A DNA stretch of 64,000 bases from a phage: assembly GCA_024672315.1 (NCBI GenBank), contig GCA_024672315.1_4714.1, one strand, 5' to 3'. Both the position numbers and the translations under genes were made by a program. Each line of letters begins with the position of its first letter. The first letter of the stretch is position 1. Shown piece after piece: positions 23,768 through 46,350 of the stretch. The notes below the pieces were generated by a model, which had not been told where the DNA came from, did not search any database, and saw only the letters and a program-made list of their open reading frames with translations.

Positions 23768-26700
23768 TTACTTGTAGGCACCGCAATGGGCTTTGATGAG
23801 GAAAAGCACCGCTTGCATCGGTTTATTGAACTGTTGCCATAACGTCAATGCCGGATGGAACAACCAATCTTCCAGGCCGAGAACAATACCGTAGTTAACG
23901 ACATTATTAACGTCGTTCTCAACGTTGAGTTCGCTGTCCAGGAATTTATCGATTGAACGCAGGGTCTGCATGGCATTGTCAGCAATAAGCCAAGCTTCAT
24001 GCGCTTCACGAGCCGCACGCAGCACTGCTTCCAGTTCGCTGATAGTGGCTACCGGTAATTCCTCACTGGTAAGGTCGTCAGATACCGTAAACTGGCGATT
24101 GATACCGGTGTAGATCCACTGCATCAGTTTCGCTGCTTCCTCGTTCGGGTTGTTACGCGTTGTCGCATAAGTCGCGCTCACCTTCACGATGTGTGTTTCA
24201 CCAAGATACGCCTTGGAACCAACACCTTTACGATCGCTGTCTTTCCACGGTTGTACGGTAGCGACCATGAGCTTATCCCATTTCTGAATAGGAATACGCT
24301 TCAGACCAACAACCGATCCGGCGGATGTTTCGGACTGGTTGCTCTTCCGCACGTCGCTGAGTTCACGATCGATAGCAACGATTAATTCACGCGTCATGTT
24401 ACCAAGCATTTTGATTTCACCCAACGCAGCGATGAGCTTCTTCACATCGGTAACAGGTTCACCACCGATGGTAAGATGACGGATGAAACGTTTCAGAATA
24501 ATCCGTTCTGCTGCTGGGTTACCGCGACGCGCTTTAGCCAATGCTTGCTGTGTTTCGGCGAACAGCTTATCCCATGGAGCCGTAGCGGCGGTATAGTAAC
24601 GGTGGTTGGTTTCAATCCAGTTACCGATACGGTTGACCGCGTTCTTAACGGTATCCATGAATCCTTCCATCGCAATTTCGGTAGCTTCGACGTTACCCTG
24701 GAAGTTATCAGGACCGATCTCACGTGCCGCGACCAGAATACCTTCCACCGCGCTCACCGCGTGGCGACCGATAGCTAGATTTCGCTGCGCTTCCTCAGCA
24801 CGCTCAACGAATTCCACCACAGCTGGATCGTCAACGATTTCCGCCTCGGCAATAGCACGTGTACCTGCATCGCCTTCCAGTGTTTCGATGGTGACAACAG
24901 GATCGTTTTCACCAGCAACATCCTGGTATTCTTCCTGTTTGAGATCGCCGTTATCAGCCGATGCGACAGCGGTGAGTATACGAACGGTAACATCGCCGAG
25001 TTCTTTTGAGGCAAACCCGTAAACAACGCATGCTGTTTTTGCGAAGTTCATCAGCGTGCGTGTGCGTTTAACGATGTAGCCGACATCGTAATCATTACCG
25101 CTCTTATCGATGTCACGGATTAACTGTTCAGCCGTTTCTTGAAGGATAGATACTGACTTCAAGAGATCGTCTTCAAACAGTTTCTTCGACACCTCAACCA
25201 ACATATCAGCATTGATGTTGGGTGGGGTTTTGTCGCCCTGCTGTTTCATCTCGCTTAATTCATCGCGGAACTTATTGATTCCATCTAAAGCGGCACTGGC
25301 GGTATGTCCGAACGCAGCCACGCCTGGCATTGTTGTTGCTGTCAGCATGTCCGCATCAGCGTTTGGACTTTCGCCTTCTTTAAGATCCTTCAGCTGGTCG
25401 AAGAACTTACGAGATGCTTCAGCGATACGTTTGCTGTCTTTAACTGCATTTACGATCTTATCGACGGATTTAGCGTCGTTTGCAAGCAGCGTATCGAGTT
25501 TGTTCCATTCGACATCGACTTTCGCTGCATCCTTAGTATCGCTTGGTGGAGGAAGCAGTTTTGTCACCGGGGTCGTGCGTTGTTCTTTGGTCAGCTTGTT
25601 GGCCTTCTCTTCGATTTTTTTCTTATTAACACCAAAGAGATTTTTCAAACGCGCCACGAGGGCTTTTAAGAACTTCGCGACCGCTTCGTAAACCGATTTC
25701 AGAATCTGTTTAAAGCGACCTGGCTGCTTTTCCCCGTCTTCCAGATTGAGATCGCTGTTCAGTGCGACATCAAGCTGTTTGTACGATTCCATGATGTATT
25801 CGTCTTTGATTTCAGGACGAATCTCGAAGCTTTCCATCGGACCTTCAGCCGGACGGAATTCCATTTTCAGTTCGCCTTGCAGGGTAGGGTCGACAATGGC
25901 GATAGCTTCACCCTGACCATCAGCGTTAAAGCGTTCAGCGTAACGAGTACGACGAACAATAACACTCTTATCCCCATCAAGACGACGTACCACCATGGTG
26001 CCAGGAATGTACGGTTGTTCTGTTTCAATGACGGTTACATCTGCCTCACCTTCACCGAGAATAACCGATGCGCGCTGTTCAACAACCGGAACATCTAATA
26101 CGCCACGGGCTTCCAGCTCTTGATGAATTTCGAACGACTCTTGTTTCAGATCTTCATCTTCTTCGTTTTCGTCGTCTTCATCATCGTCACCTTCGGTGTT
26201 TTCATCACCCTTGGTGGTTGTGTCGTCGGTGGCACCAGCGTCAGCGTCGGTGTTAGCAGGTTCTTCGGACGCAGGTTCGGTGGTGCTGTCCTCGGTGGGT
26301 GTTTCGTCAGTGTTATCGACATCAACATCACCTTGCAGTTCTGTTTCCTGAGCAACTGCTTCGGCTTTCTGCTCACCGGTATTACCGTCATTAGCGTCGA
26401 CAACAGGTTGTTCGTCAGCGACGGTATCTTCAACCTTTTCTACTTTCTCCACGACACGTTTAATCACGGTGACTTTGATGGGTTCTTCCGTTGTTTTGGT
26501 TTCTGGCGTCACCTCGGCTGCCGCAGCCGCTGTTTCAGCAACAGGTTCTGCTTTTTCCGGTTCGACGACATTACCTTTAACGCCTTCGGTGGTTTCTGCA
26601 GGTTGCGCTGCCTGTTCGATTTGCGCTGGATTGGTTGGATCGATGGCGTTAGCCGCATCCTGAATCTTGTTCTTCAGGTTGTCGCGGTCAGCGTTAACGG

Positions 26701-27154: not shown

Positions 27155-27169
27155 AAAGCGTTATTCCTC

Positions 27170-28276
27170 TTAAAAGTAATATTTCAGCGCCTCGCGAGAG
27201 ACATCAAGCATAGCCGCTGTTGAATTCGTAAAGAACTCGGCATAGCCCACAAGCGGCACCTTGATCCACGCGGTATACGCTGTAAGGTATCGAGAAAGGG
27301 CTACCATAGCATCATCAGAAGCAGTAGTAACTGACAACTGACCTTGTTGACGATAAACGTCGTTAAGTTTTGCTTGTAGATTCCCTGCGATTTCGAGTAA
27401 CTCGTTGGCGTACTTTTTACGATGGTAACTAACCAGTAAATCAACACCCTTATTCACAGACTCGAGTAGCACACCAACTTGTTCTAATGATGGCATTGTA
27501 ACCACCATATCCCGTTCAACGGACGGTACATCCTGGACTTCAAACCGTGCGGATTGAATAGCAAGGGATTGTTGAATTGGACCAGAACCTGAGGTGGTAA
27601 CCTGATCGAGTCGTAGCGTACGGTTGCCCAGTAACGTTACGTTGACAAGTCTCGATTCGTTCAGCGTACCGTAGACTTTATGCAGTAACGTATACGCGTC
27701 ACGGTTAATCACATCGATTAATGCGGTATCCGTCTGTTTTAAGATAATGTCGAGCGCTCTATCTAACGTATTAGCGAACTGCTTGAAATCATCACGGAAC
27801 GACGAAGACAAGAGATATTCAGCGATTGCCAAATTCTGTTTGTATAACGTATTCCCAGTTGTGAAGTCGAATCCAAAACTGTTCCCATACCGTAGGTGCG
27901 GTGCCAGCGTTGACGAAGCTTCGAAGCTTTGCGCGATGGGTTTACGACCAACGGCTTTTGTGTAGTGACGGCGGATGTTGCTGAGTTCGAGCTGTAGTGC
28001 GCGACTACGATCGATAAACCGTGCGATAAACGCAGTAATGTTCCGCAACGTTGTCCAGATTGCATCGATGATAGCTTTGATGATTTTCATCGCAAGCTGA
28101 TCGTACGATTCCATCGTGAGGAGATCAGCACTTTCTGTGGTATAACTGGTTGCTGGAATACCGCCTGCTTGCTGATAAATAAGCTGGTGAATTTTTCGTT
28201 GCGTTGCTGTCTCTGGCACAGGTAATGTTTTTAACAAGCTTAACGCTTGAATCTGTCCATCATAGGTCTGCAGCAT
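27170..28276 (-). CDS. putative internal head protein paralog (about 368 aa)
   Basis: Start moved to ATG at 28276 with GAGGA RBS; shares the family helix motif (AMKIIKAIIDAIWTTLRNITAFIARFI). Confidence 0.7.
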   Translation of the reverse strand: MLQTYDGQIQALSLLKTLPVPETATQRKIHQLIYQQAGGIPATSYTTESADLLTMESYDQLAMKIIKAIIDAIWTTLRNITAFIARFIDRSRALQLELSNIRRHYTKAVGRKPIAQSFEASSTLAPHLRYGNSFGFDFTTGNTLYKQNLAIAEYLLSSSFRDDFKQFANTLDRALDIILKQTDTALIDVINRDAYTLLHKVYGTLNESRLVNVTLLGNRTLRLDQVTTSGSGPIQQSLAIQSARFEVQDVPSVERDMVVTMPSLEQVGVLLESVNKGVDLLVSYHRKKYANELLEIAGNLQAKLNDVYRQQGQLSVTTASDDAMVALSRYLTAYTAWIKVPLVGYAEFFTNSTAAMLDVSREALKYYF

Positions 28277-29561
28277 TGCTGGTTTCCTCAAGTTCGAGAT
28301 GCGCGTCAAGATAATCATTAAGACCATCGATGACGTCGCAGACAGTTAACAGGAATCGGGCAAAAGCAACCGCCTGGAAGCCGACGACGTTACGCGCGAT
28401 ACCCACGCGTTGAACGATAGCGGATGCTGCGGTATCGCTGTTATCCATCTGTTGTAGCAAACGCTCGTAAGGTTGAATCCATTCGTCCTGGTCGGCAAGG
28501 CTTGCTTCAAGACAACGTTTAAATTCCAACTGTCGTAGCGTAGACCATAACGTACTTAATGCGTTGATGATCGCGTTGGTTCCGTCGATAACATCGTTTA
28601 ACGGCAAGAAACGGAATCCGTCTTTTGCTGATTGGAAAGATACGGCTTCCCACACAACGCTGAACTGCGTTCCTGTTGCGTCTTCGATGTTGTGTAATTT
28701 AAGATAGGAAGCACCAACAGGTACGTCAACGACCAGATCGTCTGTTCCGGTAGGCGTTAACGGCTTCTCGCATAACGCATCGTTGATGACCTCGAGAATA
28801 TTCTCCCAACAGGCTTCGTTTTCTGCAGCGATACCTTCTTTGTTATCCACTGATGGTGCTTTTAGTAGCTGCATTAATAACGGATCGAGTTGACGATGCC
28901 ATGCTGCGAGGATTCCTGTGTTCGTTACGATGTTTTCTGCGGTTTGTCGTAAATCAGCAATACTGCTTACCGCGCCGCCTTTCGGATGAAGATATCGCCA
29001 GTTGTAGGGAAAGTTCTCCCAGAATGCATTATCTTCATCGACGTCGTATTCGGAAATAGTTTTCAGCGCAGCCGCTTTCTTTAATAACGGCTTCACCTGA
29101 CGAACGAATCGACGATAACAACGATTGCAGATATCGATCGCGTAACGGTATAACTCGTTCATGTAAAGCCATAACGCACGGGTTGCTTCTTTTGCGGTCT
29201 TGTCAAAACTTTCCATGTTCAAGCTCATCCCGCTGGAAGTTTCCTCTTCCAGACCCTCGATGATTTGGTTTGGGTCCATTCCCATTCCGGCTGCTGCGGT
29301 TGTTGCGATATGTTTGATCGTGCTGATATCGCGTTCTTCAACTTCAGCCATGTTTGGGACAATATCCAGCCGGAGTTTATTTAATGTTTGAAGGTGTTGT
29401 TCACCTTCTTTCATCGCCACGTTTGTTTCGTCGATTGAGTGAAACTGATTCTCAATATTACTGGCATCGAGAATATTGCCAGCGATACCGAACGATTCTA
29501 CAGGTTCATCATCAATCCCTTGAAACAACGATGTCATGGGTTGTTGTAACACGTTTTCCAT
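28260..29561 (-). CDS. putative internal head protein paralog (433 aa)
   Basis: AGGAG RBS 6 nt upstream of ATG; acidic N-terminus; family helix motif (KEATRALWLYMNELYRYAIDICNRCYRRF). Confidence 0.75.
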   Translation of the reverse strand: MENVLQQPMTSLFQGIDDEPVESFGIAGNILDASNIENQFHSIDETNVAMKEGEQHLQTLNKLRLDIVPNMAEVEERDISTIKHIATTAAAGMGMDPNQIIEGLEEETSSGMSLNMESFDKTAKEATRALWLYMNELYRYAIDICNRCYRRFVRQVKPLLKKAAALKTISEYDVDEDNAFWENFPYNWRYLHPKGGAVSSIADLRQTAENIVTNTGILAAWHRQLDPLLMQLLKAPSVDNKEGIAAENEACWENILEVINDALCEKPLTPTGTDDLVVDVPVGASYLKLHNIEDATGTQFSVVWEAVSFQSAKDGFRFLPLNDVIDGTNAIINALSTLWSTLRQLEFKRCLEASLADQDEWIQPYERLLQQMDNSDTAASAIVQRVGIARNVVGFQAVAFARFLLTVCDVIDGLNDYLDAHLELEETSNAADL

Positions 29562-29709: not shown

Positions 29710-30999
29710 TTATGCTTTTTCGGTTACAGCATCGAAGTATTTCGCTGCAGCAAATACAGCATCTGCATATTGACGGTTAGCAACACGGAGGATCTTAGCT
29801 GCTAATACTGCACTCAAGCGTGCCATTTCAGAAATGGCGCTTATATAAGGGCGAACGGTTTCACGATCTGCTTCCGGTAGATTGTCGAGCATACCGTCCC
29901 ATTTAGTTTTAATTTTCATACCGTTTAGTTTAGCAGTACGTTCGACAGTACTTGTTAAACTTTCTGTCTGGCGAAAATACGCGGGGTCAACGACACGAAA
30001 CGCGTTAAGATACGAAGTCAGTGCGGCTTTCAATTCGTCGTCGTTATTGAAAATGTTCGCGTTTTCGATACTACCGGTCGCGGTTTCTTCAACTTCGATC
30101 TGAATATTCTTCACGAGCGCGCAGGCCTTAATGGTATCTTTCTCAGCCATAAGGGCGTCAAGACCTTTAACAACATATCGTTTCCCACCGCTTTCTGGTA
30201 GTTTGAGTCCTTTTAACGCAGGCTTGATGGCGTAAATATAATCGTCCAGAATATCGGCAAGTGTCGTCAAATCGGTTAGTTTATTAACTTTCTTGTTAAT
30301 GTCGTCAGTTTGGAGTAGTAAAAAAGCGGATGCTTGTGTGGATGCCGCTAACTGCTCGATATGTTTACGAACCTCCAACGCGTTAACCATTTTTGCGTTA
30401 GGGAACATGCTAATCATATTCCCGGTCGGTTTATTTATTTGTTTGAGGTGACGCTCGCCTTTATTTACAGCGGTTGCAACATCAGTAATTTTTTTATACG
30501 CTACCGCAAGGTTTTTGAAAAGCAGCTGAATCAGCTTACATAACTGTTCAGCCATGTTCGCAATGATTACCCAAACTGCGTATAACGCTTGTGCTGCGCG
30601 TTCTTTAAAGCCTTCCAGCACAATAGCTTGCCCTTCCACCAAACGATCGTCAGCTTGGAACATGTCTTCATCAGACATCCCCAGGTTTGCTGCTGACGTC
30701 GAAGCAATCTGACGGATAAGGGCGACGTCGCTCGCACGTGCTTCCGGGATCGTAGGCGCGATCATGTATGCGGTATCTTCCAGCGTTGCTGAGGTACGCA
30801 CTGCAATTTCAGCCAGTTCGCTAGATTCATCGATCGTCTCGTCGGTGCGTCGAATCACCAACTCAACTTCGTCCTCTTCGATTTCTGCGTTGGGATCATT
30901 TTGCTCCGCTGGAATTGTCGCAAGAAGATCTTCGGCGCTCAGCAAAGCGAGTTCGAATGCGTTTTTATTGACGTTATCAAAAAGAGAGATGCGGGCCAT
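29710..30999 (-). CDS. putative internal head protein paralog (429 aa)
   Basis: AAGGA RBS; acidic AxE-rich N-terminus; family helix motif (AAQALYAVWVIIANMAEQLCKLIQLLFKNL). Confidence 0.75.
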   Translation of the reverse strand: MARISLFDNVNKNAFELALLSAEDLLATIPAEQNDPNAEIEEDEVELVIRRTDETIDESSELAEIAVRTSATLEDTAYMIAPTIPEARASDVALIRQIASTSAANLGMSDEDMFQADDRLVEGQAIVLEGFKERAAQALYAVWVIIANMAEQLCKLIQLLFKNLAVAYKKITDVATAVNKGERHLKQINKPTGNMISMFPNAKMVNALEVRKHIEQLAASTQASAFLLLQTDDINKKVNKLTDLTTLADILDDYIYAIKPALKGLKLPESGGKRYVVKGLDALMAEKDTIKACALVKNIQIEVEETATGSIENANIFNNDDELKAALTSYLNAFRVVDPAYFRQTESLTSTVERTAKLNGMKIKTKWDGMLDNLPEADRETVRPYISAISEMARLSAVLAAKILRVANRQYADAVFAAAKYFDAVTEKA

Positions 31000-31008: not shown

Positions 31009-32349
31009 TTAACCTTTGGTATAAGCTTTAACGAGAGTGTTGATAAATGAAGTCAGTGCGCGAAGATACTGGTAAGCGAATTGGTTTTCAATACGGTTCT
31101 CTTTACCGCAAAGCAGAATCGCGCGCTTAACGAGCTTAGGATAGATCTCGATGTACGGTTGGTAGCTCGCATCAAAATTCTGCTCGTTGAAGCGTTTCAT
31201 GGTGATTTCCTGGATGCGCTCCATGGTGCGAATTTTATTGCGAGAGAACATCTCAGAGAAAGCACGTCCGCGTTTTGTTACCATCAACAGATCTTTCGCG
31301 AACGTCAGTTGTCGAACGCTACGCAAATCGTCAGGTGTCGGCAGGACGTACGTTTCTGGATCGCTATCCCATTCAACATCTTCAACGACAATATCCAAGT
31401 CGAGGTAACGTTTAACCACATCGATGATATTGTCTTTTGACGCATCGAATTCTTTCAAGAAGACCGCACCGTTGATGTAGCGGATACGTTTTCCGGAAAC
31501 CGTTGGGGTGATAACGTCAGTACCTTCCACGGAACCGCGATTTTCCAGTGTCGATTTGACGGCGTGCAAGAAAGACAGATAATCAACGGGAAGTTTTTCG
31601 ACCTTATCTAAATGGAAGTCGATGATGTTTAATCCTAACCCATCAATAACCGAATGACCATCCGATTTAAGGAACATCTGATTGAAGGTATCGATGTTGC
31701 TTTTCAGTGCGTCTACACCACCAACGTTGTTACGGTTAGGGAAAAGCGTCCGCCATTCTGGTTTAAACACAACCTCTTTATTTTCCTCGTATTTGCCTTT
31801 AGGCATTTGTTCGAGGTCTGCAACGGCTTTCTGAAAATTGCGTGTCTCGTCGTAAACAAGACGGGTAAGCTTCTCGAAGGCTGCTGCCAAGGTCAGGGCA
31901 ATATCAACAATGATATCCCAGATCTTTTTCATGGCTTTTACAACGGTGTCCTTAAACCCTTCAACAACCAAAGCTTCTCCAACCTCAACACGATCGGTTG
32001 GAGTCAGCAATGCTTCGGAGGGCAGACCCAGAGCAATCGATGCGGATTCTTGCATATTACGAACTAATGCAACGTCACTGTAGTTAGCCGATTCGATAGT
32101 CGGAGCAACATCAAAACTGATTTCCCGCAGTGCAGCAACAGCAGGGAAAGCACGATCAAGTGCATCTTCATGTTCGTCGATTGTCGCTAAACGTAATTCA
32201 ACGCCATCAGCATCGATGACTTCAGCGGTCGGCTCCACAGCAAGCGCCTCAGCAACAATAGGATCTTTTTCAAACGCCTCAAGGCTGATATCGCCTTGGG
32301 TCGCAAATAGCGGTATGTGTACCATGTGTTGTCTCCAGTAATGATTCAA
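31009..32349 (-). CDS. putative internal head protein paralog (446 aa)
   Basis: GGAGAC RBS; acidic AxE-rich N-terminus; family helix motif (VVKAMKKIWDIIVDIALTLAAAFEKL). Confidence 0.75.
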   Translation of the reverse strand: MNHYWRQHMVHIPLFATQGDISLEAFEKDPIVAEALAVEPTAEVIDADGVELRLATIDEHEDALDRAFPAVAALREISFDVAPTIESANYSDVALVRNMQESASIALGLPSEALLTPTDRVEVGEALVVEGFKDTVVKAMKKIWDIIVDIALTLAAAFEKLTRLVYDETRNFQKAVADLEQMPKGKYEENKEVVFKPEWRTLFPNRNNVGGVDALKSNIDTFNQMFLKSDGHSVIDGLGLNIIDFHLDKVEKLPVDYLSFLHAVKSTLENRGSVEGTDVITPTVSGKRIRYINGAVFLKEFDASKDNIIDVVKRYLDLDIVVEDVEWDSDPETYVLPTPDDLRSVRQLTFAKDLLMVTKRGRAFSEMFSRNKIRTMERIQEITMKRFNEQNFDASYQPYIEIYPKLVKRAILLCGKENRIENQFAYQYLRALTSFINTLVKAYTKG

Positions 32350-32427: not shown

Positions 32428-33750
32428 TTACTGCTGTGCTGCGTCAGCCGGTTTCTCAGCCGCTTGGCCGCCGTACTCTTTCAGCATTTTAGCAACGCCA
32501 TCCAGGACAGCGTTACCTGCCTGAACACCGTATTTCATCAGACCAGTCTGCGGGTTCACGTAGCAGGAACGTGCGTCTTTCAGTGCAGACAGTACAGCTT
32601 GAACACGCTGTTTTTCCTGAGCGGAAACTTCGCCTTTCTTAGACAGATCGGCTTCCATATCGTCACCGAATTTAACAGCGTCTTTGAAGCCCTGGGATTT
32701 CTTACCGATGTTGCCTTTCAGCGCCAGCAGTTTGTCAGCCAGTACTTCAACACCGCTAACCGCACCAGCCAGCTGGTTCAGGGACAGGACGGTAGCTTCA
32801 ACTTCTTTTGCTTCGCCGGAGCGTTCCCAGGTTACTTTACCATCATTGGCTTTGAAACCCCAACCTGCCGGGCCAGCAACGTCAGCAATCGCCGGAGCGT
32901 TCAGTTTATCAGTGTATTCGGTGTGGGACTTAGATTTGACTAACTCAACGAATTTATCAGCACGATCGTCAGCAGCCTTCATTGCTTTCTCGAAGGTGTC
33001 AGCGATTTTGGTCGCGCCGGTAACCAGATCGTCGCCACCGATGTAGCCAGAAACGCCGCTACCCAGTTTAACTTTGGTATTTTTAGCAGCGCCTTTACGC
33101 TTGGCGATCATTTCTTTCAGTTTAGCAGCACGTGCTTTCAGTTTGGTTGCGCCGTCGAAGATACGATCCATGAACTTCACGAAGGTTTCCCAGGAAGTTT
33201 TCAGGAAGTTCTTGATGGTTGCCCACAGTTTCTGCCACCATTTTTGTTCTTCCAGGAAGATCATGTTGGTTGCATCGTAACGGGAAGCGGAACCACCGAA
33301 GCTTTCGAAGGACGGCATGGTTTCCGGCATTTTGAAACCGATAGTACCACACAGACGTTTCAGATTACGCATGTGTTCCTGAGCGGTTTGTGCAGACATA
33401 CCACCGTCTTTCAGGTAGCTTTCGGTTGCAACAACGGTTTCCGTCAGTTCATCCATGGCTTCGTCCATGGCTTCTGCGGTTTCGTCGTCTTTTGCAATTT
33501 CGATAACAACAGCATCAACCTGCTCGATATCACCACGAACTTCGATAGCCAGTTCGGTTTCAGCTGCGGTATCTTCAGCGATTTCAGCACGTTCGGTCAG
33601 TTCAGCTACAGCGTTTTCATCCGCTGCTGCAGCATCAGCTGCCGGTTCTGCTTCAACGGTTGCCGCTGCATCCGGATCGATCTCAGCAGCCAGTTGAACC
33701 AGCTGTGCGTTAGATGGATTTGCGACAAGACGATCAAAAATAGAAGGCAT
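32428..33750 (-). CDS. putative abundant head protein paralog (440 aa, Ala-rich)
   Basis: Strong codon bias (second only to the capsid candidate); AAAGGA RBS; very acidic Ala/Glu-rich N-terminus with many AxE/TxE motifs; family helix motif (WQKLWATIKNFLKTSWETFVKFMDRIF). Confidence 0.75.
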   Translation of the reverse strand: MPSIFDRLVANPSNAQLVQLAAEIDPDAAATVEAEPAADAAAADENAVAELTERAEIAEDTAAETELAIEVRGDIEQVDAVVIEIAKDDETAEAMDEAMDELTETVVATESYLKDGGMSAQTAQEHMRNLKRLCGTIGFKMPETMPSFESFGGSASRYDATNMIFLEEQKWWQKLWATIKNFLKTSWETFVKFMDRIFDGATKLKARAAKLKEMIAKRKGAAKNTKVKLGSGVSGYIGGDDLVTGATKIADTFEKAMKAADDRADKFVELVKSKSHTEYTDKLNAPAIADVAGPAGWGFKANDGKVTWERSGEAKEVEATVLSLNQLAGAVSGVEVLADKLLALKGNIGKKSQGFKDAVKFGDDMEADLSKKGEVSAQEKQRVQAVLSALKDARSCYVNPQTGLMKYGVQAGNAVLDGVAKMLKEYGGQAAEKPADAAQQ

Positions 33751-33814: not shown

Positions 33815-34345
33815 TTAAAAGCCCTTAAAACCCGGTGCCATAGGTTGCCCAAACACCGCATTCAAAGTACATATGATGTCCTGGATGCCATTGTCCCAAT
33901 GGAGCCAAGTACGCACCATCTCTTCGTCTGACAACGTGATATAACTCATAAGTTTACCGCTGCTTTCCAGACGTTGGTGTGAACTTAGCGACTGGCGATC
34001 TGACCAGTTATCAATCAATTGACCAGCAATCTGAACGTTCGTGTCTCGTCTACCCGTGTGAATGAACCGCAGCATGTCACGGATAAACTCCAGACTGGTG
34101 AAGTTCAGATTTGGGTTATGGCTGTTCATTTCCACCCAATCGGTGATGGGGTACATCAAACGATAAAGGGTAGAAAGAACCTGACGCTCATATTTCCAGT
34201 CATCGAGAGGAGTACCATCGACCAGACGCTGATACAAACTAACAACGTCCCGATCGTAGTTCTCCTGGCGTTTTACACCGTTAACCGGGAATCCGAAGAA
34301 CCCGGTACCGTATAGCGTTAAAGGGACGTCACGAAGTGCACTCAT
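33815..34345 (-). CDS. hypothetical protein (176 aa)
   Basis: ORF overlapping the upstream gene by 4 nt (ATGA). Confidence 0.65.
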   Translation of the reverse strand: MSALRDVPLTLYGTGFFGFPVNGVKRQENYDRDVVSLYQRLVDGTPLDDWKYERQVLSTLYRLMYPITDWVEMNSHNPNLNFTSLEFIRDMLRFIHTGRRDTNVQIAGQLIDNWSDRQSLSSHQRLESSGKLMSYITLSDEEMVRTWLHWDNGIQDIICTLNAVFGQPMAPGFKGF

Positions 34346-35244: not shown

Positions 35245-35283
35245 GAGTGAGCACCTATGCTATTTCGAAACAGGTTGCATGTA

Positions 35284-37630: not shown

Positions 37631-37633
37631 TAA

Positions 37634-40689: not shown

Positions 40690-43476
40690 TTATCTTACGT
40701 TATTGCTATTCTGCTGTTCGCTGAACCAACCGTACACCTTGAGATCGGTACCGTATTTCAATGCGATATACGCATTCAATGCAGCACAGAACAAAGACAC
40801 GAATGCCCATATCAGCGAAGGATCAACATCTTCCGTTACCACCGGGAGAGTATTATCCGGTTCCCACGATGGAGAACTGTCCATGAACGTCGTGTACCAT
40901 TCCCGCCGTTGTTCTTCAGTGGTAAAGTCGCTATGAGGTTCCAACGCTTCTTTTGCCAGACGTCGATATTCGAACACATACGTTGCGAAAGCCGATGAGT
41001 TACCAGATTCGCCTTCATAGTTCGGATCCACCGCACAACAGAGTTCTGTGGAATCTAACAAAGCAATCGCTTGTGTGATGCTGTCGGCAGTGCCTGCACC
41101 ATAGAGCTCGATAGACCGCGAAAGCTTTTCACAGAACGTATTTAACGCGGCAGGATTGGACACCTGAAGGTCAAGGCCTAATGTCCACGGATAGTTACTG
41201 AACACGCCCGTAAACCGCGGCAGGACACCCAACAGATGTTGTCCGATTACAGCACGGTTATAAACAGCCCGGTTATAGACTTGAAACGCAGCCTCCAAGG
41301 CTTGGTTATAATGACGACGAAGTTCGTCACGCGAGTTGCGGAATCTGTTTGCCGCAAGACTCGTGGCTGCGACGCTACAAACATCGTAATTGGTGGACGA
41401 GAGCACAGTTTCGTTAAGATCGAACGATTCCTGTTTCAACGATCCGCTAACCGCTGCTGCTTCGCTGTTTGCTTTATCGACAACTGTACTCAAAGCGTTG
41501 ATGTAACGCTTAGCCCGGACTTCCAGCCATTGTGCGATACCGAGAACATCCACAGCGGCTTTAGCAAGGTCACGTGCGTTCACGATTTCGTTCTTCAATG
41601 CCCCTAAACCTTTATTCTCAGGCGAAGAGGCTTGTTGACGAATCATGCTGTTCAACATGGTAAGCAGATTATCCAACTCATGTCCACTGACCTTGTTACG
41701 TGCATCGGTAACTGGTCCTTGCAGGAATTTACGACAACCATCGTTGTATCGAATCAGTTTGTCCACATCGATAGATTCGTTCGTGGATTCCTTGAACTGA
41801 TCCTTCAATTCTTCACGGTAGTCATGGATTTCACTTGCGAGATTATCGATAGTGATACCATCGTGTCCAAGAAGAACTTTATTGAAGTTACCTTTCTCGA
41901 ATGCAAGAGCAAGACCTTCACGAATCTTAGCGAGTTTATCCTGATCGAGTTCGCGACCGTTCGATAGCTCTTTCACTTCCGAGCTGATTAGTGCCGCAAC
42001 GTTACCCAGATTGTCGGTAACGCCTTTGAATGTTCCCGACCAGATCGTTCCTGCTTCAGCATATTTCGCAATGGTCTGAATACCGACGGTGTGCAGCGAC
42101 GCTAAACGTTTCTTCGTGCCTTCGGTAAGCAGAGCGTCTTTAGCTCGCGTAAGCTGGCTGTTATTCGCTTCCGCCTGCTGAATCGCCGCTTTCGCACTTC
42201 CATTACGCCAGCTCTTAACCAGCCAATCGACCAAACGTTTTAGGATGTTGACGGTGTATTCCATCGTCCGCCGTAACGTTTCCCACGCGCTTTCTGCGGT
42301 ATAGATGCCGTACCCTTCCTGCACGAGATCGGTACGTGTGTATCCGTCGGCCGCTTCGATTTCTTCTTGCGTTTTATCCCAAAGCTCTTCGCTACGAACA
42401 GCAGTAGCGGTTTCAGATACCGACATAACAAGCTCAGCAACAGCTTCAGCGTAAGTCAGTACGGTACGCACACATTGCACTAACATGCGCTGGTAAACGA
42501 TACGTGCGTTTTGCAGACGTGCGATAACCGCTAAATAACCGATGTTATCAAGATTTTCATCGGTTTGAGCAGATTCAACGCGTTCTAACAGTTGTTTAAC
42601 TAGCGCCGCTGTTTCTGGGTAATCGTTCACGACGTCACGCATGATTCGTGATGCGAAAACCGCAGTACCTAAAACGGTGAGAAGTGTTTTACCGTCCCAT
42701 TCTTTCGGTGCCGCTACCGATTCAGCAGGGATGAGATTTCCCGCTTGGTCGAAGTACGGCATAAGGACATTGATATCAGTCGACGGAACAGCAGTAATTG
42801 CGTTGTACTCTTCATCCACGCCATCGTTGCCAGACGGTTGTAATGCGAGCGCTTGTTCGAGGATTTTGCGGTCAACAGCGTAAAGCGCCGACAGAGCCTG
42901 TGTTACCGCAACCAGATCAACGATCGGCGACCAGAGCTGTGCGAGCTTACCTTCGTATTTCTGTACAGCGATAGCAAGGTCTTCTTTTACGTCTGGATGA
43001 TCGATCAAACCACCCAATGTTTCATGGATGGCAGAAAAACGTTCAGAATGCGCTTGAGTCAATGCGGTAAAATCGTCAACGTACGACGCATTTTCTTCAA
43101 GACGCGTAAGTTCCTGCTCCAGAAGATCTTTTACTTGCGTGGCGGATGCGTTTCTCAACTGTTCCCCGATAATCGCGATGGCTTTATCGACAACACGGCA
43201 GGCTTCATTGAAACCGGTCGTTGAAGGTAACTCGGTCCATAATGCCAGCGGCTTACCTTCCATTGCGTCAGGAAGGGAATATGACAGCATTGCTAGTTGT
43301 TGACGTGATACCTGTTTGTCACGATGTAATGTTTCTTTCAACGCCAGAAGCTCATCAAGACCCACGCTGCTAGGGATCGTGGGATGTGATACGGCGTTGA
43401 TATTTCCTGTCAATGACTCAAGAACCAATAAACCATTTTCAGCGGAAGATAACCCTGCTTTAAGGTATTTGTTCAT
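40690..43476 (-). CDS. large hypothetical protein (928 aa) with C-terminal hydrophobic segment; possible head-protein family member
   Basis: Long ORF; GGAG RBS; helix motif similar to paralog family (AWETLRRTMEYTVNILKRLVDWLVKSW); hydrophobic segment LIWAFVSLFCAALNAYIAL near C-terminus. Confidence 0.8.
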   Translation of the reverse strand: MNKYLKAGLSSAENGLLVLESLTGNINAVSHPTIPSSVGLDELLALKETLHRDKQVSRQQLAMLSYSLPDAMEGKPLALWTELPSTTGFNEACRVVDKAIAIIGEQLRNASATQVKDLLEQELTRLEENASYVDDFTALTQAHSERFSAIHETLGGLIDHPDVKEDLAIAVQKYEGKLAQLWSPIVDLVAVTQALSALYAVDRKILEQALALQPSGNDGVDEEYNAITAVPSTDINVLMPYFDQAGNLIPAESVAAPKEWDGKTLLTVLGTAVFASRIMRDVVNDYPETAALVKQLLERVESAQTDENLDNIGYLAVIARLQNARIVYQRMLVQCVRTVLTYAEAVAELVMSVSETATAVRSEELWDKTQEEIEAADGYTRTDLVQEGYGIYTAESAWETLRRTMEYTVNILKRLVDWLVKSWRNGSAKAAIQQAEANNSQLTRAKDALLTEGTKKRLASLHTVGIQTIAKYAEAGTIWSGTFKGVTDNLGNVAALISSEVKELSNGRELDQDKLAKIREGLALAFEKGNFNKVLLGHDGITIDNLASEIHDYREELKDQFKESTNESIDVDKLIRYNDGCRKFLQGPVTDARNKVSGHELDNLLTMLNSMIRQQASSPENKGLGALKNEIVNARDLAKAAVDVLGIAQWLEVRAKRYINALSTVVDKANSEAAAVSGSLKQESFDLNETVLSSTNYDVCSVAATSLAANRFRNSRDELRRHYNQALEAAFQVYNRAVYNRAVIGQHLLGVLPRFTGVFSNYPWTLGLDLQVSNPAALNTFCEKLSRSIELYGAGTADSITQAIALLDSTELCCAVDPNYEGESGNSSAFATYVFEYRRLAKEALEPHSDFTTEEQRREWYTTFMDSSPSWEPDNTLPVVTEDVDPSLIWAFVSLFCAALNAYIALKYGTDLKVYGWFSEQQNSNNVR

Positions 43477-43491
43477 AAAACACTCCGTTGA

Positions 43492-43522: not shown

Positions 43523-43557
43523 GTTGAACAACGCGTACGGTTATACGGTACGCACGA

Positions 43558-46350
43558 TTACGCTAATTTACCGAAACCGGCTTTCTGTAGTTTCTCGTTG
43601 ATCAGTTTTGCTTCAGCGAAAACATAATCACGATACGCAGTGACTAATCCATCCACCCGTGAACGCAAGGCTTCTTCGAAGCTATACCACGCAGCGATTT
43701 CACGAATCTGTGCGTTGATATAATCAACGGTTGAGCGAAGCTCGGTTGCGTTTTCTTGCGGGATGGCTTTCACCTGGCGAGCAACGTCATTTAAACGACG
43801 GAACTGTGTTTCGATTTCTTTAAACTTACTGTCGGCAAGTTTGCTGAATTCGTCACCGGAACGGGTAAATAACAGATAGCTGTTGCCGTCAAGTGCGGTT
43901 GCTAACTGCTGAAGTACGTTGGTGTCCGGATACACAGGAGTACCGCTTTGCAGTACTTTCTCACCGAATTCCGCGAAGTCCTTCGGCGGTAAGTGTGCAG
44001 ACGTTGTTAACTCGTTGAAACGGAAAGTCAGCGAATTATCATACAGCATCCGGTACGCTTCCATACCCTGTTTCATAGTACCGGCCAGGTTAGCCAGACG
44101 CGGAGCAATCTCGCCTTCTTTAGCGCGTTTCTGGTCTTCTAACGCCCCTTCGAGTTCTTTACACTGGTCGTTCAGATACACGATACGATCGGGACGCAGA
44201 CGACGCATCTCACGAAGAATAGTATCCAGCTTACCTTCCTGGAAATAACCTAACGTTAATGACGTACACGCTTGCTGAAGACGATCGAACACCGGTAAGG
44301 TCACCATCTCCTTACGGATACCATCAACAATCGCAGAAACAGCCGAAAGTTTCTGTTCGGTGGTTAATGGAACGTCAGAGACCGACTTGCTGGGCGCACC
44401 AACAACGTTACGCATTGCGTCGGTATCCTCGGTTTTATCAACCTCTTTACGAACATGCTCATCAGGAACATAAACGTTCGCGTTACGTTTCGCCTGCTTG
44501 ATGGCGTCGTTGGCCGCTTTTTCGGTGGCTGCTACGCTATCAGCACGTTTCTTCAAGAGTTCAATAATCCAGAGCAACAGACGACGAATCGCAGTATAGG
44601 CCGTCGTGATGATGACACCGATAACAGCCATCTTCATGATACCGAACGATTCCATGGTCGGCTCTAATGCCTGGTCTGGCATATACCGTTCACGCAGTTC
44701 CAGATAGATCTGCTCATCTGGTTTGCTGATCTCACCACGATGCGAAGTCCGATAGATGGCTTCGTCAATCTCAACAAGATCTTTGCGTGCCTGACGATCG
44801 GATTCTGTTAAGTAAGCACAACCGGATACATCATCTTCGAAGCTTAAGAATTTGAAGAAGTCGCTGACATCGATCTTGATCTTCTTCGTTTCATTGTCAA
44901 CGTTAATGAAATCCGTTTTACGAGACTGCTGTTGAATCTTAATATCCTTTATCGGTTTAAGCGCTTTGTCTTTTAATGCCTGCATGATCTGTTTCCAGCT
45001 GGCATCGCGTTCAAGAACAAGGAAATAGTTCTTGAGTTCGAATGCGCGATAGCGGGCAACAAGTTGTTCTACCTGGACATGAGCGAGTTGTACGTCCATC
45101 AGCCAACGCGACAGCGCAGAAACCAAACGGCTATACGCAAGCAGCGTCTGGTACGTCAGCTTCATGTGTTTCTCGTAGAGCTCGATGTCTCCGCCCTGGA
45201 TGTCGGCTGTCGGGTTCATTTCCTTCGTTGCTTTGAAGACTTGTTCGGCTTCATTCAGCATCTGCTCGAACTTGACTTCATTGAACGCGTTGAATGGTTC
45301 GGCCAGTTCGTTCATCCGATCGTGCAGTTCGCGAACCCAAGCTTCTTTGTGATTACGAATGACCGCATCAGCGTGGAGTTCGGTTTGATGTTTCTGTACC
45401 CATTCTTCAATGATATCCGCAGCTGCAACAACGCCCGTGTTGTCAGAAATCAATGGAATGACGTTAGAGAGCGTACCCGCACATGCTGGTGTTTTCCAAT
45501 GATCGTTAAGCGTGTTGCGGAACGTAATGATGTCCGTCATAGACGTAGTGATATCGAGGAACGTGTTACCGTTACGACTCATGCTTGTGATGTTTGTGGC
45601 AAACGTCTTTTGTTGTTCTACAACGAATGGAATCAACGCCATCAACCAATCAGCAATACATTTTGCTTTTTCTTTCAGGTTTTTGTCGGCGATTTCTTTG
45701 AGATTAATTGCGCCGCCGTAACCTGCAAGTTCGTTATACACATCGTTCAAGGTCATCTGCGCGTCAAGCATTTCTTTGAAACGCGGATAATCTTCCCCTA
45801 ACGCATCGATGATATCCTGGATAACGTCGTCGGTTGTAGCGATAAATTTCTTCGTGTCGACTTTAGATTTCCAGATTATTTTCACCGCTTCTTTCATAAC
45901 GGTGAACATGATCTGCCAAATACGCTTAATAAGTTCCCAGACTTTCTTCGCACCATCGACAAACAGTTTAGAGACCTTGGCAACGAATCCTTCCTGCACC
46001 AATTCAACGCCGTTACGTGATGGGATTTCCGTGAAGAAAGCATCCGGCAGTTGTTTCGGGAATGCGTCACCAAGACGCATACGTAGTTCCGGTACATCAG
46101 CACGAGAAATACCGCGTGTTACTAATTGTTCGTGAAGACGAACGTTTTCTTCACCGGCAGCCACGAATTCGTCAACATCGAAGGAGACCATTGTTTCCTG
46201 ATCTTCGGTGGTAACGACGCTTGAACCATCGCTGGTCTGGATGTCCTCGTCAGGGAACGCCATGAGCATACCGTGACGCATTTCAACCACTCCGTAATCG
46301 GTTGCTAAACCGAATTCGTTGTGATCGGGGGTAATAACTGGAATACTCAT
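43558..46350 (-). CDS. large hypothetical protein (930 aa) with paralog-family N-terminal region and internal hydrophobic segment
   Basis: AAGGAG RBS 7 nt upstream of ATG; N-terminal region alignable by eye with the 28-34 kb paralogs (AKKVWELIKRIWQIMFTVMKEAVKIIW); hydrophobic stretch MKMAVIGVIITTAYTAIRRLLLWIIELL. Confidence 0.8.
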   Translation of the reverse strand: MSIPVITPDHNEFGLATDYGVVEMRHGMLMAFPDEDIQTSDGSSVVTTEDQETMVSFDVDEFVAAGEENVRLHEQLVTRGISRADVPELRMRLGDAFPKQLPDAFFTEIPSRNGVELVQEGFVAKVSKLFVDGAKKVWELIKRIWQIMFTVMKEAVKIIWKSKVDTKKFIATTDDVIQDIIDALGEDYPRFKEMLDAQMTLNDVYNELAGYGGAINLKEIADKNLKEKAKCIADWLMALIPFVVEQQKTFATNITSMSRNGNTFLDITTSMTDIITFRNTLNDHWKTPACAGTLSNVIPLISDNTGVVAAADIIEEWVQKHQTELHADAVIRNHKEAWVRELHDRMNELAEPFNAFNEVKFEQMLNEAEQVFKATKEMNPTADIQGGDIELYEKHMKLTYQTLLAYSRLVSALSRWLMDVQLAHVQVEQLVARYRAFELKNYFLVLERDASWKQIMQALKDKALKPIKDIKIQQQSRKTDFINVDNETKKIKIDVSDFFKFLSFEDDVSGCAYLTESDRQARKDLVEIDEAIYRTSHRGEISKPDEQIYLELRERYMPDQALEPTMESFGIMKMAVIGVIITTAYTAIRRLLLWIIELLKKRADSVAATEKAANDAIKQAKRNANVYVPDEHVRKEVDKTEDTDAMRNVVGAPSKSVSDVPLTTEQKLSAVSAIVDGIRKEMVTLPVFDRLQQACTSLTLGYFQEGKLDTILREMRRLRPDRIVYLNDQCKELEGALEDQKRAKEGEIAPRLANLAGTMKQGMEAYRMLYDNSLTFRFNELTTSAHLPPKDFAEFGEKVLQSGTPVYPDTNVLQQLATALDGNSYLLFTRSGDEFSKLADSKFKEIETQFRRLNDVARQVKAIPQENATELRSTVDYINAQIREIAAWYSFEEALRSRVDGLVTAYRDYVFAEAKLINEKLQKAGFGKLA

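What the first reader, a model, noticed from the sequence alone, without database searches (positions are those of the whole stretch)
23768..46350. Expanded paralogous family of acidic, AxE-rich proteins consistent with protease-processed internal head proteins
Seen: proteins from 23768-27154, 27170-28276, 28260-29561, 29710-30999, 31009-32349, 32428-33750 and the N-terminal part of 43558-46350 (possibly also 40690-43476) share an acidic N-terminal region dense in A/S/T-x-E motifs followed by a conserved amphipathic helix (K-x-x-W-x-x-I-x-x-I/L pattern). Several also have hydrophobic segments. Established (from memory): phiKZ-like phages carry paralogous inner-body and ejection proteins cleaved by the prohead protease after Glu in S/A/G-x-E motifs. 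Inference: this is the head-interior module. The number of paralogs and the two 930-aa members with putative membrane segments are notable.
Basis: partly seen in the sequence, partly recalled or inferred. Interest (0 to 1): 0.55.

Follow-up and report, generated by a model that had tools for sequence, protein, structure and literature searches.

The report
Goslar-type phage internal head protein genes
This stretch of a Goslar-like jumbo phage encodes the already described family of helix-rich proteins that are packed inside the phage head with the DNA, made as precursors with acidic front ends and cut after glutamate during head maturation; it is a known module, with a few new details about where it is cut and how its largest members are built.

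Summary
The window is a 96% nucleotide relative of Escherichia phage Goslar. The named ORFs are Goslar gp53-gp58, gp64 and gp65. All exist as described.

Confirmed:
- Strongly acidic N-terminal regions (pI 4.0-4.5).
- A Trp-containing helix following them.
- Formal homology of A (its C-terminal domain), B, D, E and F to PF12699 (phiKZ internal head proteins). C joins through D and E.

K joins through the phiKZ gp86 family and is a capsid vertex-binding protein. J is only probably related.

Not confirmed:
- A/S/T-x-E density is what the composition predicts.
- The family is not expanded: six paralogues in the same order as phiKZ gp92-97.

A 2026 preprint already reports the shared fold and virion copy numbers, so the finding is already known.

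New here:
- A recurrent E|[S/G][F/Y] motif: 15 observed against 2.4 expected.
- It aligns with the validated SPN3US maturation sites.
- One site in Goslar gp64 is directly supported by a semi-tryptic peptide in the public mass-spectrometry table.
- gp64 and gp53 look like polyproteins. Alleles and distant orthologues differ by whole modules bounded by these sites.

The parts
23768..27154 (-). A = Goslar gp53 / phiKZ gp97 position, 1128 aa. It is a multi-segment precursor. Segments: acidic N-terminal 1-456 (nt 25787-27154), middle segment 457-830 (nt 24665-25786), PF12699-like C-terminal domain 831-1128 (nt 23771-24664). E|[SG][FY] motifs lie at E339 (26138-26140), E441 (25832-25834), E456 (25787-25789) and E830 (24665-24667).
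   Evidence: External PF12699 HMM 9e-11. The segment 831-1128 scores 1.4e-6 against the core HMM (80), 94% in hhalign and E 0.002 against Pfam PF12699, starting at model position 93. The Goslar orthologue is present at about 330 copies per virion. The motifs are conserved in 102-107 of 107 alleles.
27170..28276 (-). B = gp54 / phiKZ gp96 position, 368 aa. PF12699-like. Short propeptide 1-56, motif TME56|SY (nt 28109-28111).
   Evidence: Pfam PF12699 E 4e-5, 23.4 bits, below the 27-bit cutoff. External HMM 5e-13 and hhalign 96%. First-detection E-value 4.8e-12. About 70 copies per virion in Goslar.
28260..29561 (-). C = gp55, 433 aa. Paralogue of D and E. Motifs VE22|SF (29496-29498) and NME117|SF (29211-29213). 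Hydrophobic segment aa 392-411.
   Evidence: BLASTP to E 4e-8 and to D 6e-7 (4). Iterative HMM 1.9e-7 (71). External HMM only 0.034 (109). About 46 copies per virion (19). Peptide 52-62 is present in the virion MS (27).
29710..30999 (-). D = gp56, 429 aa. Acidic 1-129, then VLE129|GFKER (30613-30615), then a basic helix-rich part.
   Evidence: BLASTP D-E 3e-19 (4). External HMM 2e-6 (109). The site aligns with SPN3US gp53 AQE125|GWKE (89). About 55 copies per virion (19). N-terminal peptide 89-96 was not found in the MS table (28).
31009..32349 (-). E = gp57, 446 aa from TTG, or 438 aa from ATG 32325. Acidic N-terminus, then VVE130|GFKDT (31960-31962).
   Evidence: Pfam PF12699 E 5e-5 over the N-terminal part only. 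External HMM 5e-7. Three N-terminal tryptic peptides are absent from the MS table. About 52 copies per virion.
32428..33750 (-). F = gp58, 440 aa. Its position matches phiKZ gp92; the literature calls it the gp93 homologue. It is the dominant internal and ejected protein. Acidic 1-149. Motifs ATE110|SY (33421-33423) and SFE149|SF (33304-33306). A second conserved Glu site (IFLE|E) lies just before the WW helix.
   Evidence: Pfam PF12699 71.6 bits, E 9e-20. PHROG internal head protein 2e-8 (6). About 2150 copies per virion. Injected with the DNA (110). N-terminal peptides are present at low intensity.
40690..43476 (-). J = gp64, 928 aa. This gene has no counterpart in phiKZ. It is polyprotein-like. 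Segments: J1 1-387 (nt 42316-43476, gp86-like), J2 388-683 (nt 41428-42315, weakly PF12699-like), J3 684-928 (nt 40693-41427, unknown). A C-terminal hydrophobic helix spans aa 886-907 (nt 40756-40821). Junctions are VQE387|GY and LKQE683|SF.
   Evidence: The semi-tryptic peptide ANSEAAAVSGTLKQE from Goslar gp64 shows cutting at the second junction. Alleles carry a 273-aa cassette exactly at the first junction. The family is narrow: four 50% clusters. About 110 copies per virion.
43558..46350 (-). K = gp65, 930 aa. Vertex-binding-complex protein. Segments: acidic propeptide 1-120 (nt 45991-46350) ending VQE120|GF, gp86-like module 1 at 121-567 (nt 44650-45990), and module 2 at 568-930 (nt 43561-44649). 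Module 2 begins TME567|SF and a hydrophobic helix at 570-588 (nt 44587-44643).
   Evidence: Matches PDB chains 11fg/11mk 'gp65'. The 801-residue chain in 36za starts at Goslar residue 134 (38). [quoted passage not shown]
33815..36390 (-). Context: G, H and I = gp59, gp60 and gp61 (phiKZ gp91, gp90, gp89). These are head proteins between the paralogue array and the baseplate genes. None carries the motif.
   Evidence: gp59 is in the vertex-binding complex. gp60 and gp61 are packaged and injected (12, 14).
46347..48130 (-). Context: L = gp66 (phiKZ gp85, vertex-binding complex) and M = gp67 (phiKZ gp84 / SPN3US gp45). M is a virion protein with a conserved HExxH and two hydrophobic helices.

Best explanation
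Identity of the genes. The region is the conserved chimallivirus head-interior module of a Goslar-like phage. Six adjacent genes (A-F) encode PF12699 'phiKZ internal head protein' paralogues. K is a duplicated relative of phiKZ gp86 that lines the inside of the capsid vertices. J is a lineage-restricted, multi-module relative.

Precursors. Each protein is made as a precursor. An acidic N-terminal region is followed by one or two Glu sites, typically x-x-E|[S/G]-[F/Y]. The first amphipathic Trp-containing helix of a helix-rich domain comes directly after.

Processing. During prohead maturation the T4-gp21-like prohead protease, which is encoded outside this region, cuts after these Glu residues. 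This separates the N-terminal region from the helix-rich domain. The N-terminal region serves for targeting or capsid binding, and part of it stays in the head. The helix-rich domain remains inside the capsid with the DNA. For gp58 at least, it is ejected into the host with the genome.

Polyproteins. The long members A and J are polyproteins whose modules are joined by ...LKQE|[S/G/A][F/Y] linkers.

What is shown:
- homology and synteny;
- virion presence and injection of the Goslar orthologues (literature);
- one cleavage in Goslar gp64;
- alignment of the window sites with validated SPN3US sites.

What is inferred:
- cleavage at the other sites;
- the identity of the protease;
- the roles of the N-terminal regions.
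For: - The window is 96.4% identical in nucleotides to Goslar. Synteny with phiKZ and SPN3US is gene for gene.
- Pfam and PHROG hits.
- An HMM built only from external PF12699 proteins gives F 6e-27, B 5e-13, A 9e-11, E 5e-7, D 2e-6. C-D-E are linked by BLASTP.
- The gp86-family HMM hits K at 2.8e-7, SPN3US gp47 at 9e-8 and B at 1.6e-4. gp86-family members hit the PF12699 core at 1e-6 to 8e-8.
- The E[SG][FY] motif is enriched: 15 against 2.4.
- The family alignment puts the window motifs in the columns of SPN3US gp53 AQE125|GW and gp54 AQE124|SY and ARE137|SLW. These sites are validated by semi-tryptic peptides.
- The semi-tryptic peptide ANSEAAAVSGTLKQE (-10lgP 108, area 14100) comes from Goslar gp64.
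- The deposited gp65 chain starts 14 residues after E119|GF.
- phiKZ gp86, gp93 and gp162 are cleavage products, and their N-terminal pieces are retained on the capsid wall.
- Virion copy numbers. gp58 injection.
Against: - Not every motif copy is cut. A tryptic peptide spanning gp53 E827|GF was detected intact, though weakly: area 541.
- The deposited gp65 chain runs through E571|SF.
- N-terminal peptides of gp53 (202-220, area 79000), gp55 (52-62) and gp58 occur in the virion preparation. The N-terminal regions are therefore not fully removed. The preparation also contained E. coli proteins, chimallin and PhuZ.
- Only peptides starting with A to ELK were available in the stored table. The predicted mature N-termini, which start with S or G, could not be checked.
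- No inner-body density was seen in Goslar.
- The P3 residues at the window sites (V, N, T, K, I, P) do not fit the S/A/G-x-E or A-x-E rules of phiKZ and SPN3US.
Confidence: 0.85

Rival explanations
1. The E-[S/G]-[F/Y] motif is mainly a structural feature of the start of the first helix, such as a capping or packing motif of the PF12699 and gp86 fold. On this view it is not itself a protease recognition site, and cutting happens elsewhere in the acidic region.
For: An intact peptide spans gp53 E827|GF. The gp65 chain is continuous through E571|SF. The P3 residues do not match the S/A/G-x-E or A-x-E rules. The motif position is fixed relative to the profile, at Pfam model position about 89-93.
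Against: The same alignment columns hold experimentally mapped SPN3US cleavages. A direct semi-tryptic peptide ends at LKQE in gp64. Cassettes and whole modules are gained and lost exactly at these sites. The cassette is preceded by E|G in three unrelated contexts.
Confidence: 0.15
2. J, and parts of A and K, are not homologous to the family. The resemblance would be convergent: acidic, helix-rich composition with a short shared motif.
For: J scores only 7e-3 to 1e-2 against PF12699 profiles. J3, A 1-456 and A 457-830 give no significant match. The AF2 model of J is poor (pLDDT 49). Foldseek against the PDB finds nothing. All these proteins are all-alpha, which inflates profile scores.
Against: J1 against the gp86 family scores 88% in hhalign, P 3.5e-7, over 347 columns. 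The J2 match spans exactly the segment between J's two motifs. BFVD Foldseek gives probability-1.00 hits to RAY gp289 and other chimallivirus gp86-like and internal head proteins. J sits in the position where RAY, PhiEaH1, PCH45 and BUCT660 carry a second gp86/PF12699-like gene.
Confidence: 0.2
3. J and K are primarily membrane-active ejection proteins. Their hydrophobic helices, exposed by cleavage, would insert into host membranes to form the conduit or the early-infection vesicle. On this view they are not structural head components.
For: The hydrophobic helix of K follows directly after TME567|SF. SPN3US gp47 shows the same arrangement, ALE111|SW followed by a predicted transmembrane helix, and gp47 is essential. 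J has a C-terminal hydrophobic helix. Chimalliviruses inject into a lipid vesicle.
Against: gp65 is modelled as 55 copies in the vertex-binding complex on the capsid wall. Nothing shows that gp64 or gp65 is injected. Each has only one hydrophobic segment, and K's scores just above the cutoff used (1.68 against 1.6; J's 2.05).
Confidence: 0.12

Closest known systems
phiKZ gp92-gp97 (Pfam PF12699, phiKZ_IP; 'inner body' / internal head proteins)
   Same: A six-gene array in the same genomic position and order. The proteins share a helix-rich fold family and an N-terminal region separated from the helix-rich domain by cleavage after Glu. They are abundant in virions and several are ejected.
   Different: In Goslar-type phages one paralogue (gp58) dominates at about 2150 copies, and no inner-body density was seen. 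The window sites have a variable P3 and a strong [S/G][F/Y] preference at P1'-P2'. The last gene (A) is longer and has a 456-aa acidic, multi-site N-terminal part.
SPN3US gp53/gp54 (paralogue family A ejection proteins) and protease gp245
   Same: Propeptides of about 125-137 aa. Two neighbouring Glu sites lie just before the first helix. The mature N-termini, GWKE.. and SLWDD.., resemble the window's GFKE, GFKD and SF... Propeptide peptides are partly retained in heads.
   Different: SPN3US has only two paralogues. Its sites obey A-x-E with V at P4; the window sites do not.
phiKZ gp86 / SPN3US gp47 (vertex-binding complex protein; essential head protein)
   Same: K matches the gp86-family profile and is the gp86 counterpart in the Goslar vertex-binding complex. 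It has an N-terminal propeptide and a cleavage site followed by a hydrophobic or amphipathic helix.
   Different: K is twice as long, with two gp86-like modules in tandem. J is an additional multi-module gene with no phiKZ counterpart and is restricted to Goslar-like phages plus one distant lineage.
T4 internal proteins IPI-III with capsid-targeting sequence, cut by gp21
   Same: These are head-internal, ejected proteins made with N-terminal targeting peptides, which a prohead protease removes after Glu (general knowledge).
   Different: T4 targeting peptides are about 10-20 aa and the proteins are unrelated in sequence. Here the propeptides are 56-456 aa and acidic, and they may persist on the capsid wall.

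Membership tests
PF12699 (phiKZ_IP) | Match to the Pfam model above its gathering score (27 bits) | tested here: met
   F scores 71.6 bits, E 9e-20, over model positions 6-385. This holds for F only.
PF12699 (phiKZ_IP) | Pfam model match for A, B, C, D and E | tested here: inconclusive
   B 23.4 bits, E 23.0 bits and A 831-1128 17.8 bits are all below the cutoff. C and D give no hit.
PF12699 (phiKZ_IP) | Significant match to a profile built only from recognised family members of other phages | tested here: met
   F 6e-27, B 5e-13, A 9e-11, E 5e-7, D 2e-6 among 51 window ORFs. C scores 0.034 but is linked to D and E by BLASTP at 6e-7 and 4e-8. hhalign: F 98%, B 96%, the C/D/E alignment 93%, A3 94%.
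PF12699 (phiKZ_IP) | Position in the conserved array between the gp91 homologue and the neck/tail-terminator genes | tested here: met
   Six genes in the same order as phiKZ gp97-gp92. The same holds in PS119XW, RAY, BUCT660 and a 259-kb metagenomic contig.
PF12699 (phiKZ_IP) | Protein present inside purified virions | not testable with these tools
   Not testable for this phage. The Goslar orthologues, 95-98% identical, are all in the virion LFQ table at 46-2150 copies.
Prohead-protease substrates (cleavage C-terminal to Glu) | Mapped cleavage after Glu between the N-terminal region and the helix-rich domain | tested here: inconclusive
   Direct evidence covers only one site, Goslar gp64 LKQE685|. 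The other sites are inferred from alignment with validated SPN3US sites and from absent or weak N-terminal peptides. One motif copy in gp53 was found uncut.
phiKZ gp86-like vertex-binding-complex proteins | Homology to gp86 and a place in the capsid vertex complex | tested here: met
   K aligns end to end with PDB 11fg/11mk 'gp65' (85% aa identity to Goslar gp65). gp86-family HMM 2.8e-7. The structural assignment comes from the preprint.
PF12699/gp86 superfamily, membership of J (gp64) | Significant profile or fold match | tested here: inconclusive
   HMM E-values of 7e-3 to 1e-2. hhalign: J1 against the gp86 family 88%, J2 55% and 36%, J3 none. BFVD Foldseek gives probability-1.00 hits, but with E 4e-4 to 2e-2 and on a model of pLDDT 49. 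Foldseek against the PDB finds nothing.

The most novel reading that the evidence does not exclude
The large members are protease-site-delimited polyproteins: gp64 (J), gp53 (A) and their orthologues. They would serve as a swappable cargo system for head-packaged, possibly injected, proteins. Modules are joined by ...LKQE|[S/G/A][F/Y]-type linkers and are gained, lost or exchanged exactly at those linkers.

Evidence in gp64:
- Among the 120 best gp64 matches listed (representatives of 90%-identity clusters), 29 carry a 273-aa cassette between VQE|GFF... and ...LKME|GY.
- 58 keep a 9-aa scar (GFFDPTKME).
- 23, including this window, have a clean junction.

The same cassette is a stand-alone gene with a 17-aa leader ending ...SME|G in Klebsiella phage Eowyn. 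In an Erwinia phage it is a domain that follows ...STE|GFF.

Distant gp53 orthologues of 1089, 1375 and 1666 aa differ by whole modules bounded by LKQE|[SG][FY].
Probability: 0.45. Interest if true: 0.55.

Novelty: already known. Interest (0 to 1): 0.3.

Why it matters
The main finding adds little that is new. The family has been known since the phiKZ and SPN3US proteomics work, and the Goslar members were described in 2026.

Three things might be useful:
1. A concrete, testable map of maturation sites for a phage that is now a structural and cell-biological model. The published study did not address processing.
2. The observation that the Goslar-type sites share P1'-P2' [S/G][F/Y] rather than the P3 rule of phiKZ and SPN3US.
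3. The cassette polymorphisms. These suggest that cleavage-site-flanked fusion is how new proteins are recruited into the jumbo-phage head and, potentially, delivered into the host. This bears on the open question of what the injected PF12699 proteins do.

Tried and rejected
- A/S/T-x-E and S/A/G-x-E enrichment: counted against the composition expectation; not enriched.
- tblastn of F against phage genomes and a viral-contig scan found only near-identical Goslar-like genomes and one weak hit, so they gave no diversity.
- The word-indexed search with J listed only close alleles among its best 120 matches. The exhaustive representative search showed that the J family has only four 50% clusters.
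- The word-indexed search with the 273-aa cassette returned nothing, although the cassette is part of listed proteins. This is taken as a tool limitation. tblastn then found its homologues.
- Pfam on the cassette, J1, J2, J3, A 457-830 and K 568-930: no significant family.
- Foldseek of the J model against the PDB: nothing below E 0.17.
- Twelve predicted semi-tryptic N-terminal peptides starting with A or D after Glu: none is in the stored part of the peptide table.
- The suspected internal repeat in A (aa 45-109 against 360-441): only E 0.049 in a two-sequence BLAST; not claimed.
- The primary phiKZ and 201phi2-1 proteolysis papers (PMC3323674, PMC2871425) are not held. The phiKZ sites are therefore taken from secondary statements.
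- The prohead protease gene was not looked for in the window.
Full report
**Identity of the window.**
Megablast of 28000-34000 hits Escherichia phage vB_EcoM_Goslar over its full length at 96.4% identity. Goslar is a nucleus-forming jumbo phage of the Chimalliviridae.

The finding's ORFs all lie on the minus strand. They correspond to Goslar genes as follows:

| Window ORF | Coordinates | Goslar gene |
|---|---|---|
| A | 23768-27154 | gp53 |
| B | 27170-28276 | gp54 |
| C | 28260-29561 | gp55 |
| D | 29710-30999 | gp56 |
| E | 31009-32349 | gp57 |
| F | 32428-33750 | gp58 |
| J | 40690-43476 | gp64 |
| K | 43558-46350 | gp65 |

Amino-acid identity to the Goslar proteins is 95-98% for A-F, but only 76% for J and 85% for K. 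The N-terminal halves of J and K are locally as low as 20-58% identical. Proteins identical to J and A occur on a 236-kb contig in an E. coli assembly. Hundreds of close alleles occur in E. coli, Salmonella and Shigella data sets.

**Check of the observation.**
The regions upstream of the helix are strongly acidic (pI 4.05-4.5). The remainder of B, D, E and F is basic (pI 7.9-9.3).

The claimed density of A/S/T-x-E is not more than composition predicts. Examples are F 9 against 6.6 expected, D 6 against 4.8, and C 0 against 2.9.

What does recur is a sharper motif: x-x-E-[S/G]-[F/Y], followed 11-23 residues later by a Trp in an amphipathic helix.
- It occurs 15 times in the eight proteins: A four times, B once, C twice, D once, E once, F twice, J twice, K twice.
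- It is absent from eight neighbouring proteins.
- 5000 shuffles give 2.4 +/- 1.5, with a maximum of 9.
- Density is 2.94 per 1000 aa, against 0.83 per 1000 in the other ORFs of the window.

**Formal homology.**
Pairwise BLASTP links only C, D and E: D-E 3e-19, C-E 4e-8, C-D 6e-7.

Pfam results:
- F matches PF12699 (phiKZ_IP) at 71.6 bits.
- B (23.4 bits), E (23.0 bits) and A 831-1128 (17.8 bits) fall below the 27-bit cutoff.
- The matches of B and A begin at model positions 89-93, that is, at the motif.

I fetched the syntenic regions of phiKZ, SPN3US, PS119XW, PhiEaH1, RAY, Eowyn, PCH45, DT01 and BUCT660. I then built a profile from their 28 PF12699-type proteins only. Against the 51 ORFs of the window it gives the following:

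| Protein | E-value |
|---|---|
| F | 6e-27 |
| B | 5e-13 |
| A | 9e-11 |
| E | 5e-7 |
| D | 2e-6 |
| J | 7e-3 |
| C | 3e-2 |
| K | 0.47 |

hhalign gives F 98%, B 96%, the C/D/E alignment 93% and A 831-1128 94%. For C/D/E the match covers only the columns around the site and the first helices.

The family assignments follow from this.
- A-F are members. In A it is the C-terminal 298 residues that match, not an N-terminal unit.
- K is reached through the phiKZ gp86 family. That family is itself a distant PF12699 relative, with members scoring 1e-6 to 8e-8 against the PF12699 core.
- The gp86-family profile hits K at 2.8e-7 with two stretches (aa 72-385 and 565-882). It also hits SPN3US gp47 at 9e-8 and B at 1.6e-4. 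K is therefore a tandem of two gp86-like modules.
- J remains uncertain. J1 (1-387) against the gp86 family scores 88% (P 3.5e-7). J2 (388-683) scores 55% and 36%. J3 gives nothing.
- An AF2 model of J is poor overall (pLDDT 49) but reaches 60-89 over aa 40-360.
- Foldseek of that model against viral predicted structures returns probability-1.00 matches to RAY gp289 (gp86-like), 201phi2-1 virion proteins and 'internal head protein' entries. Foldseek against the PDB finds nothing.

**What is already known.**
Synteny with phiKZ is gene for gene:
- A-F correspond to gp97-gp92.
- Homologues of gp91, 90, 89, 88 and 87 follow.
- K corresponds to gp86, and homologues of gp85 and gp84 follow it.
- J is an extra gene.

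The family is thus not expanded: it has six paralogues, as in phiKZ.

A preprint of April 2026 (10.64898/2026.04.21.720040) reports the following:
- gp53 and gp58 carry PF12699, and AlphaFold 3 models of gp54-57 share the fold.
- All are in purified virions. Copy numbers are gp58 about 2150, gp53 about 330, and gp54-57 about 46-70.
- gp64 (about 110 copies) and gp67 (about 48 copies) are listed in its virion MS table (Table S4); neither is mentioned in the main text.
- gp65 is one of five proteins of the vertex-binding complex and is the counterpart of phiKZ gp86, with an extra domain.
- No inner body was visible.

gp58-sfGFP is packaged, injected and stays with the early-infection vesicle. 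The PDB holds gp65 as entries 11fg and 11mk. The preprint does not discuss proteolytic processing.

**Processing.**
In SPN3US, semi-tryptic peptides place the maturation cuts at these sites (with sequences):
- gp53 AQE125|GWKETLK
- gp54 AQE124|SYGARK and ARE137|SLWDDIK
- gp47 ALE111|SWANAGK..., followed by a predicted transmembrane helix

In the alignment of 33 family members there are two conserved Glu columns, 10-20 residues apart, just before the Trp helix.
- The window motifs of B, C, D and E fall in the column of the SPN3US maturation sites.
- F's SFE149|SF falls in the upstream column, together with gp54 AQE124|SY.

The public Goslar peptide table is stored only for peptides beginning with A to ELK. 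Within that range I found ANSEAAAVSGTLKQE from gp64 (-10lgP 108, area 14100). This is stronger than the tryptic form ANSEAAAVSGTLK (area 5460). It ends exactly at the Glu of LKQE|AF, which is LKQE683|SF in the window. This is direct evidence for one site.

Supporting observations:
- One deposited gp65 chain begins at residue 134, 14 residues after E119|GF.
- Three N-terminal tryptic peptides of gp57 and one of gp56 are absent.
- gp58 N-terminal peptides have areas of 5000-17000. The gp58 total is 1.08e7 over 87 peptides.

Observations that limit the claim:
- A peptide spanning gp53 E827|GF is present intact (area 541).
- gp53 202-220 is abundant (area 79000), and gp55 52-62 is present.
- The preparation contains host proteins, chimallin and PhuZ.

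Retention of N-terminal pieces is not unexpected.
- In phiKZ, the N-terminal regions of gp93 and gp162 stay bound to the inner capsid surface after cleavage, and gp86 is a cleavage product.
- In SPN3US, propeptide peptides of gp53 persist.

**Polyprotein-like architecture (the new part).**
Among the 120 best gp64 matches listed (representatives of 90%-identity clusters), 29 are 1196-1201 aa long. They carry 273 extra residues exactly between ...DLVQE|GFFGPILK... and ...LKALKME|GYGIYTAESAW.
- 58 alleles, including Goslar's, keep only GFFDPTKME at that point.
- 23 alleles, including this window's, read DLVQE|GYGIY.
- The long allele sits in the same locus.

The cassette has homologues elsewhere.
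- In Klebsiella phage Eowyn it is a stand-alone 306-aa protein whose 17-residue leader ends ...SVSME|GLVDTLKKLF.
- In Erwinia phage pEa_SNUABM_54 it is the C-terminal domain of an 805-aa protein, beginning ...LASTE|GFFDNIV. A second copy follows ...SVSQE|GLLSWLGKLF.

The only distant homologue of J (32% identity) keeps ...YKAE|SF at the second junction.

The four motifs of A are kept in 102-107 of 107 Goslar-like alleles. Distant gp53 orthologues (31% identity) are syntenic on a 259-kb contig. They are 1089, 1375-1380 and 1666 aa long and differ by whole modules. Those modules are bounded by [D/E][D/E]LKQE|[S/G][F/Y], LAKE|G[F/Y] and LKTE|GF.

The linker LKQE|S/A-F is the same one found at A E339 and J E683. 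The J E683 site is the one supported by mass spectrometry. I therefore read A and J as polyproteins whose modules are released, or at least separated, by the head protease. I also read cleavage-site-flanked fusion as a route by which proteins enter the head. This is an inference; no cleavage at the cassette junctions has been observed.

**Verdict.**
The interpretation as a head-interior, protease-processed module is supported. The family and its Goslar members are already described, so the finding is ordinary for a specialist. The site map, the P1'-P2' preference and the cassette polymorphism are modest additions that can be tested directly.

Noticed in passing
window 11345-13645 (+), opposite 11420-13642 (-): A 766-aa open reading frame runs antisense across the whole major capsid protein gene (740 aa, minus strand). 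This is probably a by-product of codon usage in a highly expressed gene that avoids TTA, CTA and TCA in frame. It is unusual at 47% GC.
   Followed up: no
window 46820-48130 (-), M = Goslar gp67 / phiKZ gp84 / SPN3US gp45: A virion protein, about 48 copies in Goslar. It has an HExxH motif (HEIGH at aa 162) that is conserved in all ten homologues examined, plus two strong hydrophobic helices (aa 292-336). The DT01 homologue is annotated Peptidase_M48. Pfam M48 is not significant here (E 0.45). It may be a head-packaged metalloprotease.
   Followed up: partly
window 40690-43476 and 43558-46350 (J aa 100-400; K aa 250-500): The N-terminal halves of J and K are only 20-58% and 32-80% identical to Goslar, while the rest of the proteins and the neighbouring genes are 94-100% identical. 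This points to allelic replacement or fast evolution of these segments among otherwise near-identical phages.
   Followed up: partly
relatives of window 42316-42318 (J junction E387|G); loci L017, L015, L016: A 273-aa cassette is present in 29 of the 120 listed gp64 relatives. It is reduced to a 9-aa scar in Goslar and absent in the window. Its homologues are a stand-alone gene in Klebsiella phage Eowyn and a domain of an 805-aa protein in Erwinia phage pEa_SNUABM_54. In every case it follows an E|G site. No Pfam family matches.
   Followed up: yes
whole window; proteins P0001, P0124 and relatives: Goslar-like genomes appear as contigs of about 235-243 kb in many E. coli, Salmonella and Shigella isolate assemblies and sequencing runs. 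This suggests frequent carriage (carrier state or pseudolysogeny) or contamination of cultures by this phage group.
   Followed up: no
window 28260-28327 and 32325-32349: Start-codon ambiguities. B's longest ORF starts at 28327 and overlaps the end of C by 68 nt, whereas Goslar annotates the start equivalent to 28276. E's longest ORF starts at TTG 32349, whereas Goslar uses the ATG equivalent to 32325.
   Followed up: no
window 23768-27154, A aa 126-339: A 214-residue stretch is extremely acidic and rich in Thr, Ala and Pro (61 D+E against 16 K+R). It precedes the first LKQE|SF site. A Goslar gp53 peptide from this region (aa 202-220) is abundant in virions, so this acidic segment seems to be retained in the head.
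   Followed up: partly
PDB entry 36za, chain C7: The 801-residue chain that matches gp65 residues 134-934 carries the molecule name 'Inner-peripheral baseplate spoke gp32' in the table. This is either a labelling mix-up in the deposit or in the local copy.
   Followed up: no
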